Position numbers and translations under genes: made by a program. From the NCBI GenBank assembly GCA_000004985.1, contig GG738852.1: a stretch of DNA of 64,000 bases; one strand, given 5' to 3'. Origin of the DNA: Naegleria gruberi. Taxonomy: Eukaryota. Below are positions 28,786-37,047 of this stretch, in pieces. The notes under the pieces were generated by a model. It saw nothing but the letters and a program-made list of their open reading frames with translations, did no database searches and had not been told where the DNA came from. Position 1 is the stretch's first letter; each line of letters starts with the position of its first letter.

Positions 28786-31398
28786 ATGAATTACTTTGGT
28801 AGTAGTAGAAATTCTGGAAATATTAAACTTAGTTCTAGCCAACAAAGTACTTCAAGCGTACTCAGCACTCAATCAAATCAAAGCGCAACAAGTAGCTTTT
28901 CAACAACTACATTTGCCAGTAGTATTAGTAGTTCAAGCACAGTAGGCTTACCAAACTATACTCAACCATCAAGAACATCACCAGAAGAAATGGAAGACAG
29001 AAATGAGATTCTCAATGCTGAGCCACATATTCTATGTTCCAATAGTATTAATATTAGTCCAAATCCACTTGAAAAGAAAGCTGGAGGTTCGGGACTTAAT
29101 GCACTCAGTGCCTCTCCAGATTCTAGATTAATTGCTGTTGGTGGTAGAAAATTGTTCAGAATTGTTAGAGCTTCTTTTCAGGAAGATGAGAAAAAGTTCA
29201 AACTTGATATTCCCATCACAATTTATTATTCTGGTAAGAAGAGTATGGATTTTGCTGTTGTAGATCTGAAATGGCATCCAACTTTACCTAATGTCATTGC
29301 GACTGCCCCTCCAAATGGTAAGGTAATTTTGTGGAATGTAAATAGTAGCTCAAAAAGTGGTAAAATCATTACCAGATTTAATGGTCACGAATGTACAGTC
29401 AACTCACTTTGTTGGCAACCACACCAAGAAAATCTTTTACTTAGTGCGAGTGTAGATCATACCTGTCGTTTGTGGGATAAGAGACAAGGTGGTGATTCAG
29501 TTCATACATTTAATTGTGGAAGTGTTGTAAGAAGTATCAAATTTAACACATTTTTCCCAAATGTATTTGCTGCAGCAACAGATGGAGGTGACTTCCAAGT
29601 TTGGGACATTCGTAAACCTAATCTGTATCAAAAGAAAATTCCTGCTCACAATGGTCTAATTTTATCACTAGATTGGCATCCAAAGAAGGGTGGGTTTATT
29701 GCAACAGGAGGTAGAGATCGTGTCATTAAGGTATGGGATTTGAATGACACAAAGAAACCAATCTCTACAGTTCAAACTATTGCTAGTATAGCCAAGATTG
29801 CCTGGAGACCTGGTAATTATAACTATCATTTGGCCAGTTGTGCTAAGAATGATGTTGGCTCAACTAGTAATATCAATTTGTGGGATATCAGTTCAAGATA
29901 TGTACCACTTTTGAGTTTTACTGGGCAACGTGCTGATGTCACAGATATTGCCTGGATGAATAATTATCCAAATTTAATGATGAGTTGCTCTAAGGATAAT
30001 ACTTTCATGATTCACAGTGTGTATGAAGCTGAATATGAAAAGGCTTCCCTTCCAACAAGTGCTCTCTCTTGGAATATTAATAATGAACTAGTGCACGCCA
30101 ATGACGAAATTGATAGACAACAACACGAACGATATCAAACCATCTTACAAACAGTTGCAACTAATCCACCATCAGTTATCAAGCAAATCAATAGAGAGAC
30201 TGAAATGTTTACTTTCAAAGAAGCACACATTGACAAATCAATCAATATCAGCAAGAATATTACTCAAGATAATGATTTATTTGCCGAATCAGATGTTTCC
30301 AATGTCAAGTACCTTGCTGAGAATTATGATCTCTTCAGTGATGACACCTACCAAGTTAAGTGTGACAGAAATGCCTTTGTTGCCTCTTCTATTAATAATT
30401 ACAAATTGGAAAAACTATGGAAATTGGTCAAGGATCTTCACACCCCTTCCACAACTAAGAATGAGGAACCAGAAATTTTGGAAGATAATATTGTTTCAGC
30501 CAGTGAAAACACTACCATCCATTCCAACATTTTTGAAGACTCTAATTCTCTCATTTTCCAATCTGAAGAAGGAGACGACACCTCTGAAGAAAAATACAGT
30601 CGCTCCAATTCATTCGACAATTACCCTTCTAACCATATGCTCTACTCACCTCTTAAAACTCCTAGCTCTTTCCACAATGATACCCTCAATTTATCAACTC
30701 CTCCTACAAACAACAGCATTCGAAAGAAGGCAAGAGATGCTATTTCTCAAGATTTCCCACAACCACCAAAACTAACTCTATTTACTACTGGCGAAGAAGA
30801 AAAACTCAAATCTAATATTCAATCATTTGATGATATGGAAAAACAACATGTATCCATTGCCAAAGAAGCCCACTCATCCAGTTTGTCCTTTGAAGATGAT
30901 GACGAACTGGAAAGTCTGTACGAGTCTTCTATTCAGGAAACAATTGAATATTATGCAGAGATGGGTGACATTCAAACTTGTGTATCACTTATTGAAGTAC
31001 TTGATAAGAAACAAAATATGAGTGGAGAAAGAGAGGCTCAATGGTATTTGAGTTATATTGAACTTTTGAATAGACACAAACTGTTTACATGTGCTAACGA
31101 GTTGATCAATGGGTGTACAAATTACGAGGTACACCACCTGAACAAGCAATCAACCTCTATTAGAACTAGCTGCGGAAAGTGTGACAGTCTTTTACAAAAT
31201 ACAGACACTACATGTAAGAAATGCTCAACCAGAACGAATATGTGTGTAATTTGTCACTTGCCAGTGGACGGTCTGTTTTACTGGTGTCAAAGATGTGGCA
31301 ATGGAGGACATCTCAATCATATGTGTGAATGGTTTGCCAAATACAAACACTGTCCAGTTTGTCTCAGTCACGTTAGCAAACTCCAAACTCTTACCTAA
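28786..31398 (+). CDS. WD40 protein with a C-terminal RING-like zinc finger; GATOR2 subunit WDR24/Sea2-like (WDR59 or MIOS not excluded).
   Basis: 870-aa ORF. N-terminal WD repeats (WHP..., VWD/LWD motifs). The C-terminal finger is CGKCDSLLQNTDTTCKKCSTRTNMCVICHLPVDGLFYWCQRCGNGGHLNHMCEWFAKYKHCPVCLSHV, as in SEA/GATOR2 components. Confidence 0.55.
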   Translation: MNYFGSSRNSGNIKLSSSQQSTSSVLSTQSNQSATSSFSTTTFASSISSSSTVGLPNYTQPSRTSPEEMEDRNEILNAEPHILCSNSINISPNPLEKKAGGSGLNALSASPDSRLIAVGGRKLFRIVRASFQEDEKKFKLDIPITIYYSGKKSMDFAVVDLKWHPTLPNVIATAPPNGKVILWNVNSSSKSGKIITRFNGHECTVNSLCWQPHQENLLLSASVDHTCRLWDKRQGGDSVHTFNCGSVVRSIKFNTFFPNVFAAATDGGDFQVWDIRKPNLYQKKIPAHNGLILSLDWHPKKGGFIATGGRDRVIKVWDLNDTKKPISTVQTIASIAKIAWRPGNYNYHLASCAKNDVGSTSNINLWDISSRYVPLLSFTGQRADVTDIAWMNNYPNLMMSCSKDNTFMIHSVYEAEYEKASLPTSALSWNINNELVHANDEIDRQQHERYQTILQTVATNPPSVIKQINRETEMFTFKEAHIDKSINISKNITQDNDLFAESDVSNVKYLAENYDLFSDDTYQVKCDRNAFVASSINNYKLEKLWKLVKDLHTPSTTKNEEPEILEDNIVSASENTTIHSNIFEDSNSLIFQSEEGDDTSEEKYSRSNSFDNYPSNHMLYSPLKTPSSFHNDTLNLSTPPTNNSIRKKARDAISQDFPQPPKLTLFTTGEEEKLKSNIQSFDDMEKQHVSIAKEAHSSSLSFEDDDELESLYESSIQETIEYYAEMGDIQTCVSLIEVLDKKQNMSGEREAQWYLSYIELLNRHKLFTCANELINGCTNYEVHHLNKQSTSIRTSCGKCDSLLQNTDTTCKKCSTRTNMCVICHLPVDGLFYWCQRCGNGGHLNHMCEWFAKYKHCPVCLSHVSKLQTLT

Positions 31399-31453: not shown

Positions 31454-34392
31454 TTAAATATCTGGTGAGTAATAAATTGCATCAGATTTTGTGAGAGGAA
31501 TATGAAGCTCTGTTGGGGAGGATGACAATGGCACCTCTTCAACAGATTTTGGAATAATTGTGTGTGATTGCAAATCTTCTTGTTCTTGTTCTGTGAGGTT
31601 TGTTCCATCTTTGAATACCTTTTGTGTGAGTAAATGGAGAGCATACACATACACTTCATCTCTGGCTCTCTTTCCCCAAACAAAGTCATTATGCTTAAAA
31701 CCAATAATCTTTTTTGAATATACAAGTGAATATTGAAGCCCCTCCATTAAGAATTCCTCAATATCTGAAGGATTAGCCAAGTAATCAAGAGTGCCATAGA
31801 AAACAGCAATTGGTACATCAATTATCTTTTTAAGATCGTACTTTTCAACTTTTGGGGGTGTAGAATTCTTGGCAGAGCTTGCTGGATAAGTAAATGATTG
31901 GAATGATTCAGACTTGATCAATTGACCCCAGTGAATTAAATTTTGGAGAGAAGTTGGAGAAGGTTCATATTTTGATAGGATTGGTAAAATTGCATGATCA
32001 ATATCACAATCTGACAAAACTGTCCATGCTTCATTGAATAAACTCTGAGTAAGCTTTGGTAAAACAGATCTACTGACTGTTTTGTTTCAACAATGAATTA
32101 TTATGGAGCAATGTTAAAAATTACAATCTAAAAGAAAAACTTACGTTGTGTAGCACCAATTTCTCCAATACCTATTCCTTCCAGGGTTGAGAATAACATC
32201 TCCGTATTCATCTTGGTAACCATGGCTAACAATTTGCTTTGTTGATGCTTGAGACTACACACAGGTGCCAAAGCAATGAACATGTCCAATTTCTTTTGTA
32301 ACTCTGGGAATAATGTCAAGGCAACAAACGCTTGTGTAGTTCCTTGAGAATGGCCAACATAGGATAATTTCTCTACTTGAGTGAACTTGAGTACGTATTT
32401 AATTTGGGCTGGGAAATCAAATTTTGCCATTTCAGTAAATGAGAATTTCCAAAATTCCTTGTCTGTAAAGCTATTCCATGAAATGTGTTTTCTACTAAAT
32501 TGAACGCCTCTATTATTTCCAAGCCAAACATCAAAACCTGCATCTGCGAGCATGAATGCAAAGCTATATTTTTGGCCTCCAATAAGCCAAGCAGAGCTAG
32601 AATTGAAAACGCCATGTTGTAAGAATACTACAGGTCTCTTCTTTTTCTTTCTTCTTTCCAATTCGTCCTCTAATAAAATTTCATCCTTGAAAAGCATGAG
32701 GGAATTCAAATTTCCATGAGGAATTCTGTGAATTTGCAACACGTATCCATCACTGGTAACGGTTTCGTGTTTTTCAATTGGATATCCTTGTTGTCTTACA
32801 AAATCAAAAATTGATTCTTGCTCTTGGTCGTGAGACGTCAACTTAATTTTGTCTGATTTCTTATTTGGTTGTGACTCTTTAAATTTCTGTGGTGCACTCA
32901 TAAGAATATCATGTGCAAGTTTGGTACTGTTATTTGGTGCTTGAATCAGTTCCCAGTCACTAAGGTTGCTTCTTTCATCTTCCATAATTAAGAGAGAATC
33001 TCTCAATTCCATTCCACTCAATCCATTGGATACTTCGTTTAATAGGGTCTTTTCTCGTTCACCTTTTTTAATTCTATCATCAACCTCAAGTAGGAGTGCA
33101 GTTGGCATGTGTTGATGAATAAGTTTACAAAAGTCTTTGTTTGACTCTCCATACTCTTCTCTTGCAGTTTGGTAGGCTACTCTTCCACTACCATCTCTCA
33201 ACTTGAGAACACGATCCAAAATTTCCAAACTCTTGTACTGATCGATGAGCATTCTACAAATTTCCGTATTGCCTGTTTGGGCACAGAGATGGAATGGGGT
33301 TCTTCCCTCCTTATCTGCATGGAGGAGCATGTCTATCATTTTATCCTCATCAACTAGTAAGAGCAAATGCGGCAATAACTCAATCGAACCAGATTTGACA
33401 CAAATGTGAAAAACATTTTCATTGAAAATGGTTGTCAAATAGAGGTCACTTCCAAGATCCACCAAAGTTTGAATAGTTTCTTGGGATGATTTTGCCAATA
33501 TGGCACAAAATAGTGGGGTATACTTTTCATCATTCAATTCGTCAATATTAATCTTCATTTCCATTTCCTTCTCAGGTTCCTTCTTTTTAAAGAGAGAAAG
33601 GAAGGATACTTTCTCTGGACTAGAAGGAATTACTTTTTTAATTTCATCAGTCCATGTGGCCATCTTGTCATAATAATATGACAAGTATTCTGATGAAATT
33701 GATTTTTTTTGTACAGATTCTTCCTTCTTGACAAGTGCATCTGAAACAGTTTCAAGAGTTGAAGCAGAAACCACTTCGACAGGCATAGCCACTTGTTTAA
33801 ACTTGAGAATATGATACTCATCCTTCAAGAGTGTTAAAATACATTGTATAATTTGATAATTTCCAGTTTTACAAGCCAAATGCAAAATGGTATCATTATT
33901 CCTCGATGTTTTGATGAGTAACATTTTACGAATAACAGAATCAGGAATATAATTATTTCCCTCTGTCAAATAATTGATCATTTCCAAATCTTGTCTCATC
34001 ACTGAAACGTGAATAATAGAACATTTTCCAAGTATTGTATAATTAATTTTCTTATTCGTTAATAACAATTGTAAAATTGATTTAAACGATTCACTATTAG
34101 TAGTTTCCTCTTTCAATGACTGATGCAATTTCCTCGAGAGTAAATCATCAAGCAATTTAATATTTCCCTGTTTTACAGCATTATTCAGAGTCATACCAAA
34201 TCGATGATCATCCTTGATATACTCATCTAATGCTGTTCCGATATTATTTACATCTTCCTCTCCTCCCAATAGAAGAGTTTCATCAGTCATTCTATCATCC
34301 TCATCAACTACCAATTCATCAGTAGTATTTGTTGTATTGGTGGTATTGTTATTAGTTCTTCTCCAAGAAGGGATCATTCTCTTAAAAAACAA
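31454..34392 (-). CDS. Ankyrin-repeat domain fused to an acid (gastric/lysosomal-type) lipase alpha/beta-hydrolase domain. Exon 1 is 34392..32145, intron 32144..32077 (68 nt, GTAAGT..AACAG), exon 2 is 32076..31454.
   Basis: The N-terminal half has at least 6 ANK repeats (e.g. TILHLACKTGNYQIIQCIL, TPLFCAILAKSSQETIQTLVDLGSD, RTPFHLCAQTGNTEICRMLID). The C-terminal half has VVFLQHGVFNSSSAWL, the nucleophile elbow GHSQGTT, and in exon 2 the Asp/His region GTLDYLANPSD...HNDFVWG. The join is phase-1 compatible (c|tc = Leu). Confidence 0.8.
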
Positions 34393-34517
34393 CCGCCACT
34401 ATTGTGGTGAGCAAGCAGTGTAGAAAGTTTTTTTGTTTGATGGCATGTTCATCATTTGAATGTTCAACCCAAAATAATTTTCAGTGTTTGATGATGTAAT
34501 ACAAATGAAAAAGAGAG

Positions 34518-34577
34518 TGGAGATCCCCGTACCTCTTCCATGCTAAAGAAGCGCTCTACCATGTGAGCTACATCCCC
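34518..34577 (-). pseudogene. tRNA-Ala(AGC)-like element of 60 nt lacking a T-arm; likely a tRNA pseudogene or tRNA-derived fragment. It sits in the 0.8-kb divergent spacer.
   Basis: The minus-strand read is GGGGATGTAGCTCACATGGTAGAGCGCTTCTTTAGCATGGAAGAGGTACGGGGATCTCCA. The acceptor 5' half, D-arm and anticodon arm (loop TTAGCAT, anticodon AGC) match eukaryotic tRNA-Ala, including the G3:U70-type context. About 12 nt of T-stem and loop are absent before ATCTCCA. Confidence 0.45.
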
Positions 34578-35217
34578 TTACATTCATTATGAAAAAACGC
34601 TGTTAATGAATGTTTCAGAAAATTGTTAAATAAAGGTTCTATCCTTGCACATCTATGGTAATTTTAGTCTCAGAATTTTTGCATTTGAGCCGTAAAGCGT
34701 TTTAAGGGTTTTAAAATTTCCATTTCTAATAAATTCGGCGACCATCACCCAAACTCAATCAAGTTGTGTAATCCATAATATTTCGAATAGATTCACACTC
34801 TATAATACATACACCTTGCCTCATACTTCCTCATCTTATCATATTTTACACAGTACATTCAATTCCAACCAACATGAATTAATCCAAACTAATCTTCCAT
34901 CACACCACAATTCTTACCTCAAATATTAATATTTCATTCCTTCGTACATTTATCCCAACACTGGTCCAGAAATGGATTTTCCCTCCACAATAAAAATCAA
35001 CCAACATCAAAACCCAGCAGTGGAATATTCTGCGCTTCTTTTTGCATCTGAAAAAAAACAAACAACAACACTTTGCATCCCCTCCAGATTATACTTCTCC
35101 CACCAACACAGAAAGGAGTAGTTCTCAACTCTTACCACACACAACAACAACAAGATTGATCCCTAAATTAATAATTTTAAAGAGTTTGTGATACAAAAAA
35201 AGTTTAGCAAGAAAATA

Positions 35218-37047
35218 ATGGGAAGAAAGAAAAAGCAGGTTACTCTAATTGATTTGGAGTGTTATACGTTTTGTTATGAATTGATTTATTCCGATAAGGA
35301 TACTAGGGATTGTTTCTTTGATTATTTGATAACCACTCATAATGAAGGTAAATAGTTTCGAATAGTATAATATTTATTTATCATACGAATTTATTCATTA
35401 ATAGAGGCCATTTACTTTATTCAAAAAGTACAACAATTTAAAAAGAAGGATTTGACCAATAACAAGAAGGCCAAACTTGCAATTGAAATATTTAATTGTT
35501 ATTTGAAAGATGGTGGAAAATACGAATTGAATTTATCATCAAAAGATAGACAACACATCAAGGAAGAGTACGAAAAGGTTGGACAGTTGGATAATTGCGA
35601 AACCTGTCTTCTTTCCGATAATATATTTACTGCTCTGGAGCAGCAAATTCACTTGAGTTTGAAAGAAGCTAATTTTCCACATTTCATCAAATCTCCTAAA
35701 TTCAGAGAGCTTGCCATGAAGCAAACAACAGATTTCCTGGATAAGATTGGTTTTAGAATGAATGCTAAAAAGATTGATATTATTCAAAGATTACTGGGTT
35801 CTTCATCATCTATAATTGCATCACCTTCAACACAAAGTTTGGCAAGTCTTGATGGTTCAATGGACTCTTTTAGATTGAGTGAAAGTCTCACAGGTCCAAT
35901 TATTGATCCAAATGCCTTCCTCAGAGGAGAATCATCAAATGGTTGGAAATTATTGGACAAACATTCACATATTACTGTGGAAGATTTCAGATTTATGGCA
36001 TGCAAGGTTTTCGAAAAGGATTCCAAAGCTCAAGACATGAGCAAATTCTTCCAAAATTTGGTTGGTGATCCATCTGCAGATAGCACATCAAGAAGACAAT
36101 CAGCTCCAAACTTGGCAAGTAAATCTGCATCCTATTCAGAGAGATCAATGTCTCTCTCAGTCAACAACTCTCCAAGTCTCCAACGATACAATAGCGAAAA
36201 TAATAATGTGAGAAAAATTTCAATAGATTCATCTAGTAATGTGACGGAATATTTTGAGGATATGTGGACAAAGAGTGAGAAGAAGACATCCAATTACACA
36301 CTGTATAGTTATGATTTGAAAACTTCAATGTTCGACGAGGCAGATACTGATGTTATGGAATCACTGAAAAATATTCACATATTCAAGACTGAAGTGGAAT
36401 ATCCTTACAATGTAGATTTTGTTGTGGAAACATTCGCCAGATCACAGTATAGAATTGATTTTGACAATATGTTGAAAGAATCATTTTCTCTCGATTTTAT
36501 GCACGTTCATCAACCTCCAAGTGAGGGTGAGGTTAGACGTGAGGAAGTTTCGAGTAGCATGTTACAAGAGGTTTGGCGATTTTCCTACTCACTTCTCAAT
36601 CTCAAAGATAGAAGTTTCATTGTCGAGTCGAGTCTCATGTACGATGAGCAGAATAGAGCTTATTTACTATTGAAAAAATCAGTAGATAATGTCATTATTG
36701 ATGATAGTGATTGTGTCAGAGGTCGTCTCTTGCAATTAATGGTATTTGAGAGAAAGGAGAAGGAAAAGACAATCATGACAGATTTTGTAGTTTTGGATAT
36801 GAAGGACAGTGTAAATAATATAATTTTTGAGAATTGTGTTGCCAAGAGAGCAAAAGAGTTTTACGATAAGGGAATGTCTGCTCTAAAAGCAAACATGGAA
36901 CTCATCAAACATAACTTCCCAACACCAAGCGATAGCGACCGTATTTTGGAAACACTTGTCAATAATAACAAGTGTGGATATTGTAAACTAGGATTCAAAC
37001 TGAGGACGAATAATAATTCTGATCTAGATGACCTGGACGATTTGTAA
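35218..37047 (+). CDS. Regulator of G-protein signalling (RGS) domain protein. Exon 1 is 35218..35347, intron 35348..35404 (57 nt, GTAAAT..AATAG), exon 2 is 35405..37047.
   Basis: The spliced N-terminus LECYTFCYELIYSDKDTRDCFFDYLITTHNEEAIYFIQKVQQFKK...KLAIEIFNCYLKDGGKYELNL...FTALEQQIHLSLKEANFPHFIKSPKF has the RGS-box pattern. The join is phase-1 compatible. The C-terminal 350 aa is Ser-rich and of unknown function. Confidence 0.78.

What the first reader, a model, noticed from the sequence alone, without database searches (positions are those of the whole stretch)
31454..34392. Ankyrin-repeat array fused N-terminally to an acid lipase catalytic domain
Gastric/lysosomal acid lipases (GHSQG nucleophile, Asp/His in the C-terminal exon) are normally secreted or lysosomal single-domain enzymes with a signal peptide. 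Here the catalytic domain follows about 500 aa of cytosolic-type ANK repeats with no signal peptide, implying a cytosolic lipase targeted through protein-protein interactions. The 68-nt intron splits the catalytic triad (Ser in exon 1, Asp/His in exon 2).
Basis: seen in the sequence. Interest (0 to 1): 0.55.

Follow-up and report, generated by a model that had tools for sequence, protein, structure and literature searches.

The report
Ankyrin-fused, non-secreted acid lipase in Naegleria
This Naegleria gruberi gene really does encode one 951-residue protein in which an ankyrin-repeat scaffold is joined to a gastric/lysosomal-type lipase that has lost every sequence hallmark of secretion, so it most likely works in the cytosol of an amoeba that lives mainly on fat.

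Summary
A minus-strand gene (ATG 34377, stop 31454-31456, one 68-nt GTAAGT..CAG intron at 32077-32144) encodes 951 aa. The N-terminal ~475 aa hold an ankyrin solenoid in two blocks, and aa 511-905 are a full acid-lipase domain (E 1e-64 to dog gastric lipase). Ser677 lies in exon 1; Asp842 and His873 lie in exon 2.

The fusion is not a gene-model artefact. The ankyrin part and the nucleophile share one 754-codon ORF. Willaertia magna and two unassigned contigs (one metagenomic, one assembled from a public sequencing run) carry the whole fusion as single intronless ORFs.

The lipase domain falls in a 14-member protist clade (NJ bootstrap 99/100). All members keep the triad. All lack a signal peptide, the lid disulfide Cys227-Cys236 and the Asn252 glycosylation sequon. 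Nine of the 14 carry ankyrin repeats. The most likely function is a cytosolic neutral-lipid or steryl-ester hydrolase positioned or regulated through its ankyrin module. Localisation, substrate and partners are inferred, not shown.

The public N. gruberi model (XP_002680960.1) is a 375-aa lipase-only fragment with a 4-nt mis-splice. I rate this a new variant of a known kind, of moderate interest.

The parts
32145..34377 (-). Coding exon 1 (aa 1-744 plus the first base of codon 745). It holds the whole ankyrin region and the first two thirds of the lipase domain, including the nucleophile.
   Evidence: Single open frame. ATG at 34377 with an in-frame stop a few codons upstream. Pfam and PDB hits.
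32077..32144 (-). 68-nt phase-1 spliceosomal intron (GTAAGT...ACAG) inside the lipase cap region
   Evidence: Frame-restoring GT..AG search. The junction GATQ|LSR matches N. fowleri, N. lovaniensis, Willaertia and P0005. N. lovaniensis has a 145-nt intron at the same position and phase.
31454..32076 (-). Coding exon 2 (aa 745-951 plus stop codon 31454-31456). It holds the rest of the cap, catalytic Asp842 and His873, and an acidic C-terminal tail.
33808..34200 (-). Ankyrin-type solenoid block 1 (aa ~60-190), including the invariant NAVKQ and LG.C motifs
   Evidence: Pfam Ank_5 at aa 160-181. AF2 pLDDT mostly 60-96. Foldseek matches to ANK proteins. Invariant columns in A2.
33556..33807 (-). 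Insert between the ANK blocks (aa 191-274). It is largely disordered, with a conserved aromatic amphipathic helix (aa 227-250, 33628-33699: ISSEYLSYYYDKMATWTDEIKKVI) and an SFLSLF motif.
   Evidence: Low pLDDT except for the helix at 227-249. Conserved in Naegleria, more loosely in Willaertia. Highest hydrophobic moment in the protein, muH 0.53.
33103..33555 (-). Ankyrin solenoid block 2 (aa ~275-425), about four repeats
   Evidence: Pfam Ank_2/Ank_4/Ank/Ank_3 at aa 291-381. pLDDT 88-95. Foldseek.
32950..33102 (-). Two long helices after the ANK stack (aa 426-476), including the conserved KLIHQHMPTALLLEVD.RIK junction
   Evidence: AF2 H426-454 and H458-476. Conservation.
32944..32961 (-). SDWELI (aa 473-478). 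A conserved W-x-x-[LIV] motif preceded by acidic/Ser residues, at the start of the disordered linker. It is a candidate Atg8/LC3-interacting motif (hypothesis only).
   Evidence: Conserved as GEWEVI (N. fowleri, N. lovaniensis) and SEWEVV (Willaertia); absent in P0005 and P0153. Regex hit.
31595..32847 (-). Acid-lipase catalytic domain (aa 511-905; the span includes the intron). PF04083 region aa 525-600, GHSQG aa 675-679 (32341-32355), Ser677 32347-32349, Asp842 31784-31786, His873 31691-31693.

Best explanation
The locus is one Naegleria gruberi gene. It encodes a 951-aa, non-secreted, catalytically competent member of the gastric/lysosomal acid-lipase family (PF04083 plus alpha/beta hydrolase; Ser677-Asp842-His873). 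A ~475-aa ankyrin-repeat scaffold is fused to its N-terminus.

It belongs to a protist clade of this family that has left the secretory pathway: no signal peptide, no lid disulfide, no conserved N-glycosylation sequon. That clade has repeatedly carried N-terminal ankyrin modules.

The most likely mechanism is as follows. The enzyme hydrolyses neutral-lipid esters (triacylglycerol and/or steryl esters) from the cytosolic side. The ankyrin solenoid, its aromatic amphipathic insert and the two following helices would place it on a partner protein or organelle surface such as a lipid droplet or phagolysosome, and/or gate its activity. This is analogous in logic to the ankyrin domain of iPLA2-beta.

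Shown: gene structure, single-polypeptide fusion, conservation, intact catalytic machinery, loss of secretory hallmarks. Inferred: cytosolic location, substrate, and the role of the ankyrin module.
For: One ORF spans the ANK region and the nucleophile.

The full fusion is conserved in N. fowleri and N. lovaniensis (60-61% identity), Willaertia magna and two JGI metagenome proteins, P0005 and P0153. Short-ANK forms are P0158, P0161, P0024 and P0265. Willaertia L004 6001-9042, L002 6189-8684 and L003 1692-3311 are uninterrupted ORFs that translate to the whole fusion. Each has an in-frame stop 2-8 codons upstream of the ATG.

The lipase domain matches solved gastric lipases and LAL at 1e-60 to 1e-64.

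In a 126-sequence NJ tree the 14 signal-peptide-less sequences form a clade with bootstrap 99/100. In that clade Ser153, Asp324, His353 and Gln154 are 14/14 conserved. Cys227 and Cys236 are 0/14, against 98 and 97 of 112 elsewhere. Asn252 is 0/14, against 82/112 elsewhere. The N-terminal hydrophobicity maximum is <=1.5, against about 3 or more in the canonical members examined. Across the family, absence of a signal peptide associates with absence of the disulfide (Fisher p = 1e-7).

The AF2 model of aa 1-519 (pLDDT 70, >90 in both ANK blocks) superposes on ANK proteins over 360-400 columns (FEM1B rmsd 3.9 A).

Context: N. gruberi prefers lipids as fuel (PMC6205838). The lipase inhibitor orlistat slows its growth, IC50 75 uM (PMC7526813).
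Against: There is no transcript, proteomic, localisation or activity data for this protein. 'Cytosolic' rests on the absence of secretory features. Unconventional delivery to a lysosome is not excluded.

The signal-peptide test was a hydropathy scan, not a trained predictor. The NJ tree is simple (Kimura distances), and internal nodes of the clade are weak (46-54%). So it is unresolved whether ANK was gained once or twice.

The family is named for an acidic pH optimum. If that is retained, it would fit a lysosomal site better than the cytosol.

The full-length AF2 model was poor (pLDDT 38.6), so nothing can be said about ANK-lipase contacts.
Confidence: 0.7

Rival explanations
1. The enzyme is a lysosomal (acid) lipase that reaches the lysosome without a signal peptide. 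It would be made in the cytosol, attach to lipid droplets or to Atg8 through the conserved SDWELI motif and the amphipathic helix, be taken up with its substrate by lipophagy or microautophagy, and act after acidification.
For: The catalytic domain is closest to acid lipases. A W-x-x-[LIV] motif with upstream acidic/Ser residues is conserved in four vahlkampfiid species, as an island at the start of a poorly conserved, low-confidence linker. There is a precedent: yeast Tgl1, a steryl-ester hydrolase described as acting both in the cytoplasm and inside the vacuole, is transported into the vacuole by an ESCRT-dependent route and is the major steryl-ester hydrolase there (PMC12793711).
Against: By my rough estimate, about one such short motif is expected by chance in a protein of this length. 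It is absent from P0005 and P0153. It sits at the end of a predicted helix rather than clearly in disorder. Loss of the stabilising disulfide and glycan argues against adaptation to a lysosomal lumen. No experimental data exist.
Confidence: 0.15
2. The fusion is an annotation or reading artefact. The ankyrin region and the lipase would be separate genes or transcripts, as the lipase-only public N. gruberi model (XP_002680960.1, 375 aa) might suggest.
For: The reference N. gruberi protein is lipase-only and flagged partial. No RNA-seq was available here.
Against: No stop codon separates the ANK region from the lipase region in a 754-codon ORF. The linker contains conserved blocks. The same architecture appears in seven other sequences, three of them verified as single intronless ORFs on their contigs. 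The public model starts exactly at the Pfam domain edge (SIFDFV) and is mis-spliced by 4 nt relative to all orthologues. That pattern is typical of a homology-seeded partial model.
Confidence: 0.03
3. It is a secreted or lysosomal lipase whose signal peptide lies in an unrecognised upstream exon.
For: The N-terminal ~55 aa are not conserved between species. There are 1,059 nt of intergenic DNA upstream.
Against: No ATG-started open stretch of 15 codons or more on the minus strand of 34378-35451 has a signal-peptide-like hydrophobic core (max KD10 1.75). Four other loci have in-frame stops just upstream of a hydrophilic start. A complete transcript-derived ORF of a clade member from Percolomonas also lacks a signal peptide. 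The disulfide and the glycosylation sequon are lost across the clade.
Confidence: 0.04
4. It is a scaffold or pseudo-enzyme. The lipase fold would serve as a lipid- or protein-binding module and the ankyrin part would carry the main function.
For: None specific. ANK fusions to inactive hydrolase folds exist in general (my own knowledge).
Against: Ser, Asp, His and the oxyanion Gln are conserved 14/14 across a divergent clade. The lipase domain is the most conserved part of the protein.
Confidence: 0.05

Closest known systems
Mammalian acid lipases: gastric lipase LIPF (PDB 1HLG, 1K8Q) and lysosomal acid lipase LIPA (6V7N)
   Same: Same catalytic domain family: PF04083 plus alpha/beta hydrolase with cap. 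About 37-40% identity over ~370 aa. GHSQG elbow, Ser-Asp-His triad and oxyanion Gln are all conserved.
   Different: No signal peptide, no Cys227-Cys236 lid disulfide, no Asn252 sequon. It adds a 510-aa N-terminal ankyrin region and a 46-aa acidic tail. The location is presumably cytosolic rather than secreted or lysosomal.
[quoted passage not shown]
   Same: Lipases that are not secreted and that act on stored neutral lipid. They show that steryl-ester hydrolases of this kind can work outside the classical secretory route (title of Koffel 2005 as cited in PMC3890349; PMC12793711). That they belong to the PF04083 acid-lipase family is my own knowledge and was not tested here.
   Different: The yeast enzymes are described as membrane-anchored. 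The Naegleria protein has no hydrophobic segment and carries ankyrin repeats instead. No yeast sequence was compared, so their relationship to the protist clade was not determined.
iPLA2-beta / PNPLA9 (PLA2G6)
   Same: Same design logic: an N-terminal stack of ankyrin repeats followed by a C-terminal serine lipase domain in a cytosolic enzyme. The ankyrin domain takes part in regulation and localisation (PMC5823874) and binds the allosteric regulators ATP and calmodulin (PMC11621833).
   Different: The catalytic fold is unrelated. iPLA2-beta has a patatin domain, which uses a Ser-Asp dyad (my own knowledge); this protein has an alpha/beta hydrolase with a Ser-Asp-His triad. No patatin family appeared in the Pfam scan. 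This is analogy, not homology.
Uncharacterised orthologues in public databases: N. fowleri 'unnamed protein product' (P0002), N. lovaniensis C9374_009803 (P0003), Willaertia magna ABK040_014711 / KAL9643254.1 (P0004)
   Same: Same architecture along the full length. 60-61% identity for the Naegleria species. All conserved blocks are shared.
   Different: They are annotated only as hypothetical or unnamed proteins. The N. gruberi reference entry XP_002680960.1 lacks the ankyrin part entirely. Willaertia has no intron.

Membership tests
Acid lipase family (gastric/lysosomal lipases; Pfam PF04083 + PF00561) | N-terminal 'Abhydro_lipase' region (PF04083) followed by an alpha/beta-hydrolase core | tested here: met
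   PF04083 71.8 bits (cut-off 27) at aa 525-600. PF00561 54.1 bits (cut-off 25.8). 1K8Q, 1HLG and 6V7N at E 1e-60 to 1e-64 over aa 512-894.
Acid lipase family (gastric/lysosomal lipases; Pfam PF04083 + PF00561) | Catalytic triad Ser153-Asp324-His353 in a GxSxG elbow, plus the oxyanion Gln154 (gastric lipase numbering) | tested here: met
   Ser677 (GHSQG), Asp842, His873 and Gln678 align to these positions. They are conserved in 14/14 clade members.
Acid lipase family (gastric/lysosomal lipases; Pfam PF04083 + PF00561) | Cleavable signal peptide and entry into the secretory/lysosomal route | tested here: not met
   N-terminal KD9 maximum is -0.04, against about 3 or more in the canonical members examined. 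No TM segment. No signal-peptide-like upstream ORF. This was a hydropathy scan only, not a trained predictor.
Acid lipase family (gastric/lysosomal lipases; Pfam PF04083 + PF00561) | Cap/lid disulfide Cys227-Cys236 and the conserved N-glycosylation sequon at Asn252 | tested here: not met
   Thr and Phe replace the cysteines and Asp replaces Asn252. The cysteines are present in 98 and 97 of 112 other family members and Asn252 in 82 of 112.
Acid lipase family (gastric/lysosomal lipases; Pfam PF04083 + PF00561) | Triacylglycerol or cholesteryl-ester hydrolase activity with an acidic pH optimum | not testable with these tools
   Needs a recombinant enzyme assay.
Ankyrin-repeat proteins | Tandem 33-residue helix-turn-helix repeats that form a solenoid | tested here: met
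   Five Pfam Ank families above their cut-offs. The AF2 model has pLDDT >90 in both blocks. Foldseek top hits are all ANK proteins, E 1e-8 to 1e-7, over 360-400 columns. There are roughly 7-8 helix pairs; only 4-5 are recognisable by sequence.
iPLA2-beta / patatin-like phospholipases with ankyrin repeats | Patatin catalytic domain (Ser-Asp dyad, by my own knowledge) | tested here: not met
   No patatin family appeared in the Pfam scan at E <= 1. The catalytic domain is an alpha/beta hydrolase with a triad. The resemblance is architectural only.
Yeast Tgl1/Yeh1/Yeh2 membrane-anchored steryl-ester hydrolases | Hydrophobic membrane anchor | tested here: not met
   No segment reaches KD19 of 1.6 or more; the maximum is 1.33, inside an ANK helix.
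Yeast Tgl1/Yeh1/Yeh2 membrane-anchored steryl-ester hydrolases | Lipid-droplet or plasma-membrane localisation and steryl-ester specificity | not testable with these tools
   Needs localisation and substrate assays. No yeast sequences were placed in the tree.

The most novel reading that the evidence does not exclude
Heterolobosean amoebae and some unidentified protists may have turned the 'lysosomal' acid-lipase fold into their principal cytosolic lipid-droplet lipase. It would then be a functional counterpart of ATGL/HSL. The enzyme would be recruited by an ankyrin scaffold with an aromatic amphipathic helix, and coupled to autophagy through a conserved Atg8-interacting motif. In that case this protein would be a key entry point of the fat-based energy metabolism of Naegleria and a plausible target of orlistat-like inhibitors in the N. 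fowleri lineage.
Probability: 0.2. Interest if true: 0.65.

Novelty: new variant of a known kind. Interest (0 to 1): 0.45.

Why it matters
Three reasons.

1. **Reach of the family.** Acid lipases are textbook secretory or lysosomal enzymes. A well-supported protist clade that keeps the chemistry but has shed the signal peptide, disulfide and glycan shows the fold being redeployed on the cytosolic side. Members carry ankyrin modules, and neighbouring signal-peptide-less sequences carry FYVE or other N-terminal modules.

2. **Relevance to Naegleria.** N. gruberi burns lipids in preference to glucose. Inhibitors of fatty-acid oxidation, and in N. gruberi the lipase inhibitor orlistat, slow growth (PMC6205838, PMC7526813). 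The lipases that feed this pathway are uncharacterised. This conserved enzyme has an orthologue in the brain-eating N. fowleri and is a concrete candidate.

3. **Annotation.** The N. gruberi reference model is truncated to the lipase domain and mis-spliced by 4 nt. Proteome-wide domain surveys of this model organism therefore miss the fusion.

Tried and rejected
- **Full-length homologue search.** It returned only three hits because the candidate list was saturated. I repeated it with the lipase domain alone.
- **Homologue search with ANK block 2 plus linker.** It returned nothing, not even the protein itself. This is a tool limitation. I therefore could not find out whether this particular ankyrin module is attached to other catalytic domains elsewhere.
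- **Spliced window protein.** It could not be handed to the representative search or to structure prediction. I used alignments of exon translations and orthologues instead (A1, A2).
- **Full-length AF2 model of the N. fowleri orthologue.** It was too poor to use (pLDDT 38.6), so there is no information on ANK-lipase packing.
- **Other long 'fusion-like' hits.** Most of the long hits in the top 150 of the profile search are tandem lipase duplications or merged gene models, not ANK fusions.
- **tRNA-like stretch just upstream of the gene.** It is a degenerate fragment, below the Rfam cut-off and not called by ARAGORN.
- **Public N. gruberi locus.** A look-up for the contig of XP_002680960.1 found nothing on record. 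I could not see whether a separate ANK model is annotated next to it.
- **Literature.** Searches for the accessions, for Naegleria + lipase + ankyrin, and for acid lipase + ankyrin repeat found no description of this architecture.
- **Bexkens et al. Table S1.** The supplement is not held, so I could not check whether this gene is on their lipase list.
- **Short-ANK versus long-ANK forms.** The ankyrin parts align colinearly but weakly (E 0.01). Whether they share an origin is left open.
Full report
**1. What is in the sequence**

The window is AT-rich eukaryotic DNA (about 35% G+C). On the minus strand a 754-codon open frame runs from 34392 to 32128, and a 187-codon frame follows at 32017-31454. 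A search for GT..AG introns that restore one frame gave two 68-nt options.

The option with the canonical donor is 32144..32077 (GTAAGT...ACAG, phase 1). It gives the junction ...GEIGATQ|LSRSVLPK. N. fowleri, N. lovaniensis, Willaertia, P0005 and the other relatives all read (L/I)SR at this point. The other option (32140/32073) gives ...GATQRNRS. That is the one used in the public N. gruberi model and is therefore probably a 4-nt mis-splice.

The first ATG is at 34377, and a TAG lies in frame just upstream. The product is 951 aa. N. lovaniensis has a 145-nt intron at exactly the same position and phase. The Willaertia magna orthologue is intronless.

**2. Domains**

Pfam places Abhydro_lipase (PF04083, 3.4e-20) at aa 525-600 and Abhydrolase_1 at aa 582-708. 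Five ankyrin families score above their cut-offs, around aa 150-185 and 291-381.

Against solved structures, aa 512-894 match dog gastric lipase (3.8e-64), human gastric lipase (1.6e-62) and human lysosomal acid lipase (1.6e-60). The N-terminal half matches ankyrin proteins and DARPins.

GHSQG is at aa 675-679. The triad is Ser677, Asp842 and His873.

An AlphaFold model of aa 1-519, built on an alignment of six orthologues, has mean pLDDT 70. It resolves the N-terminal half as follows:
- a disordered N-terminus (aa 1-46);
- a helical-repeat block at about aa 60-190;
- a low-confidence insert at aa 191-274 that contains one conserved helix;
- a second repeat block at about aa 275-425, with pLDDT 88-95;
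- two long helices at aa 426-476;
- a disordered linker up to the lipase domain.

Foldseek against the PDB returns only ankyrin-repeat proteins at the top. The alignments cover 360-400 columns, for example FEM1B at rmsd 3.9 A. The N-terminal half is therefore an ankyrin solenoid of roughly seven to eight helix pairs, interrupted by an insert. It is not 500 aa of uninterrupted repeats.

**3. Is the fusion real?**

Yes.
- The ankyrin region, the linker and two thirds of the lipase domain, including the nucleophile, lie in one exon with no stop codon.
- Full-length orthologues with the same architecture exist in N. fowleri and N. lovaniensis at 60-61% identity.
- A profile search of 1.84 billion cluster representatives added Willaertia magna KAL9643254.1 and the metagenome proteins P0005 and P0153.
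- The lipase-domain search added shorter ANK-lipase proteins P0158, P0161, P0024 and P0265.
- On their contigs the Willaertia gene (L004 6001-9042), P0005 (L002 6189-8684) and P0158 (L003 1692-3311) are single uninterrupted ORFs that translate to the complete fusion.
- Each has an in-frame stop two to eight codons upstream of its ATG.
- Contig L002 keeps the window's local gene order. A convergent WD40/RING gene there is 42% identical to window 28786-31398, separated from the lipase gene by one extra lectin-like gene in L002.

The window itself is N. gruberi. The reference protein XP_002680960.1 / EFC48216.1 ('predicted protein, partial', 375 aa) is 99% identical to the lipase domain but begins at the Pfam domain edge and lacks the ankyrin part.

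**4. Is it cytosolic?**

I tested it in three ways.

(a) Hydropathy. No window of 19 residues exceeds KD 1.33, and the N-terminus is strongly hydrophilic. The canonical family members I examined have an N-terminal hydrophobic maximum of about 3 or more.

(b) A hidden upstream exon. None of the ATG-started open stretches of 15 codons or more on the minus strand of the 1,074-nt upstream region has a signal-peptide-like core. A complete transcript-derived ORF of a related Percolomonas protein also lacks one.

(c) Secretory hallmarks inside the catalytic domain. I aligned 126 lipase domains and built an NJ tree. The window protein falls in a 14-member clade with bootstrap 99/100. The clade holds three Naegleria species, two Willaertia paralogues, Percolomonas and eight sequences of unassigned origin (from metagenomes, sequencing-run assemblies or EukProt). 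Every member lacks a hydrophobic N-terminus.

Within the clade:
- Ser153, Asp324, His353 and the oxyanion Gln154 (gastric-lipase numbering) are conserved 14/14.
- The lid disulfide cysteines Cys227 and Cys236 are absent 14/14. They are present in 98 and 97 of the 112 other sequences.
- The Asn252 sequon is replaced, mostly by Asp. Asn is present in 82 of the 112 others.

Across the whole set, absence of a signal-peptide-like N-terminus associates with absence of the disulfide (Fisher p = 1e-7).

An enzyme that keeps its chemistry but drops the disulfide and the glycan is what one expects after leaving the oxidising, glycosylating secretory pathway. This is good indirect support for a cytosolic life. 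It is not proof.

**5. Wider pattern**

Nine of the 14 clade members carry ankyrin repeats. Six are the long form and three are the short form, which has about 170 aa ahead of the lipase domain. The short form aligns weakly but colinearly with ANK block 2 of the window protein (E 0.01). Internal nodes of the clade have only 46-54% support. One gain with losses and two separate gains are both possible.

Just outside the clade there are two more signal-peptide-less, disulfide-less members. One carries an N-terminal FYVE finger (P0077). The other is a Balamuthia protein with a 520-aa N-terminal extension that has no Pfam match (P0046).

Attaching cytosolic targeting modules to this catalytic domain is therefore a recurring theme in protists. 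Yeast Tgl1, Yeh1 and Yeh2 are also non-secreted steryl-ester hydrolases (title of Koffel et al. 2005 as cited in PMC3890349; PMC12793711).

**6. Mechanism**

Best explanation (confidence about 0.7 for the statement as a whole): a cytosolic serine lipase or steryl-esterase whose N-terminal ankyrin scaffold provides localisation and/or regulation.

The closest design analogue is iPLA2-beta. There, N-terminal ankyrin repeats flank a patatin lipase domain, take part in regulation and localisation (PMC5823874), and bind the allosteric regulators ATP and calmodulin (PMC11621833). The catalytic folds are unrelated, so this is analogy only.

Two conserved non-ankyrin elements are candidate targeting devices:
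- The helix at aa 227-250 (ISSEYLSYYYDKMATWTDEIKKVI) overlaps the window with the highest hydrophobic moment in the protein (aa 233-250) and is rich in aromatic residues. That is typical of lipid-droplet or membrane-binding amphipathic helices (my own knowledge).
- SDWELI at aa 473-478 is conserved as GEWEVI and SEWEVV in the other vahlkampfiids. It fits the Atg8/LC3-interaction pattern, as I recall it.

The second element feeds the main rival (about 0.15). In that reading the enzyme is delivered with its substrate into the lysosome by autophagy and works there at acid pH. This echoes the recent finding that yeast Tgl1 is carried into the vacuole and is the main steryl-ester hydrolase there (PMC12793711). 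By my rough estimate, however, about one such short motif is expected by chance per protein of this size, and it is missing from the two metagenomic long-form relatives.

The other rivals are each unlikely on the evidence above: an artefactual fusion, a hidden signal peptide, or a pseudo-enzyme.

**7. Novelty and significance**

I found no paper that describes this architecture or these accessions. The orthologues are in public databases only as hypothetical or unnamed proteins. The N. gruberi entry is a truncated, mis-spliced fragment.

The catalytic family and ankyrin fusions are both ordinary in themselves, and Naegleria is rich in multi-domain proteins (my own knowledge). I therefore rate this as a new variant of a known kind with moderate interest (0.45).

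It gains some weight from Naegleria biology. Lipids are the preferred fuel of N. gruberi (PMC6205838). Orlistat, a covalent lipase inhibitor, inhibits its growth with an IC50 of 75 uM (PMC7526813). The responsible lipases are not defined.

**8. Limits**

No expression, localisation or activity data were available. The signal-peptide test was a hydropathy scan. The tree is a simple distance tree. The full-length structure model failed, so nothing can be said about contacts between the ankyrin stack and the lipase lid. I could not find out whether this ankyrin module occurs with other catalytic domains.

Noticed in passing
window 34506-34577 (-): A degenerate tRNA-Ala(AGC)-like fragment lies about 130 nt upstream of the lipase gene's ATG. 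The 5' half is a good tRNA; the T-arm and acceptor 3' half are decayed. Rfam tRNA scores 25.6 bits, below the gathering score of 29. ARAGORN calls no tRNA anywhere in the 64-kb window.
   Followed up: partly
window 31454-32847 (-), compared with XP_002680960.1 / EFC48216.1: The public N. gruberi protein for this locus is a 375-aa 'partial' lipase-only model. It uses a splice shifted by 4 nt (GATQ|RNRS instead of GATQ|LSRS) and omits the whole ankyrin half.
   Followed up: yes
window 28786-31398 (+): The convergent neighbour encodes an 870-aa WD40 protein with a Cys/His-rich RING-like C-terminus. Its Pfam hits include MIOS_WD40, so it resembles a GATOR2-type subunit. Its orthologue (42% identity) sits in the same convergent arrangement near the ANK-lipase gene on metagenome contig L002. 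That suggests a heterolobosean origin for the contig.
   Followed up: partly
window 35452-37047 (+): The divergent upstream neighbour is a 531-aa protein with an N-terminal RGS domain (PF00615, 2.5e-8). The rest has no Pfam match.
   Followed up: no
P0077 (661 aa) and P0046 (Balamuthia mandrillaris KAL6067301.1, 990 aa): These are other acid-lipase domains with no signal peptide and no lid disulfide, each fused to a different N-terminal module. P0077 has a FYVE zinc finger. P0046 has a 520-aa region with no Pfam hit that by eye resembles a split PH domain.
   Followed up: partly
L004 6001-9042 (Willaertia magna) and L001 10001-13367 (N. lovaniensis): The intron in the lipase cap is present at the same position and phase in N. 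gruberi (68 nt) and N. lovaniensis (145 nt) but absent in Willaertia. Willaertia and N. lovaniensis share downstream neighbours (eIF-5A, DHHC) that do not adjoin the gene in the N. gruberi window.
   Followed up: partly
window 34378-34400 and the N-terminal codons, compared with P0001: An ENA-derived ORF call (P0001) comes from another assembly of the same or a very close strain. It differs from the window by the length of a T-run just upstream of the ATG and by a 3-aa indel in the Asn/Thr-rich N-terminus. This fits a UTR followed by a low-complexity, fast-evolving start.
   Followed up: no
window protein aa 906-951 (31457-31594) and the orthologue tails: The acidic C-terminal tails are poorly conserved, except for an EQEQ stretch just after the lipase domain in the three Naegleria proteins and a YY(S/T) motif a few residues from the C-terminus in Naegleria and Willaertia. 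The function is unknown. No -SKL-like peroxisomal ending is present, judged by eye.
   Followed up: no
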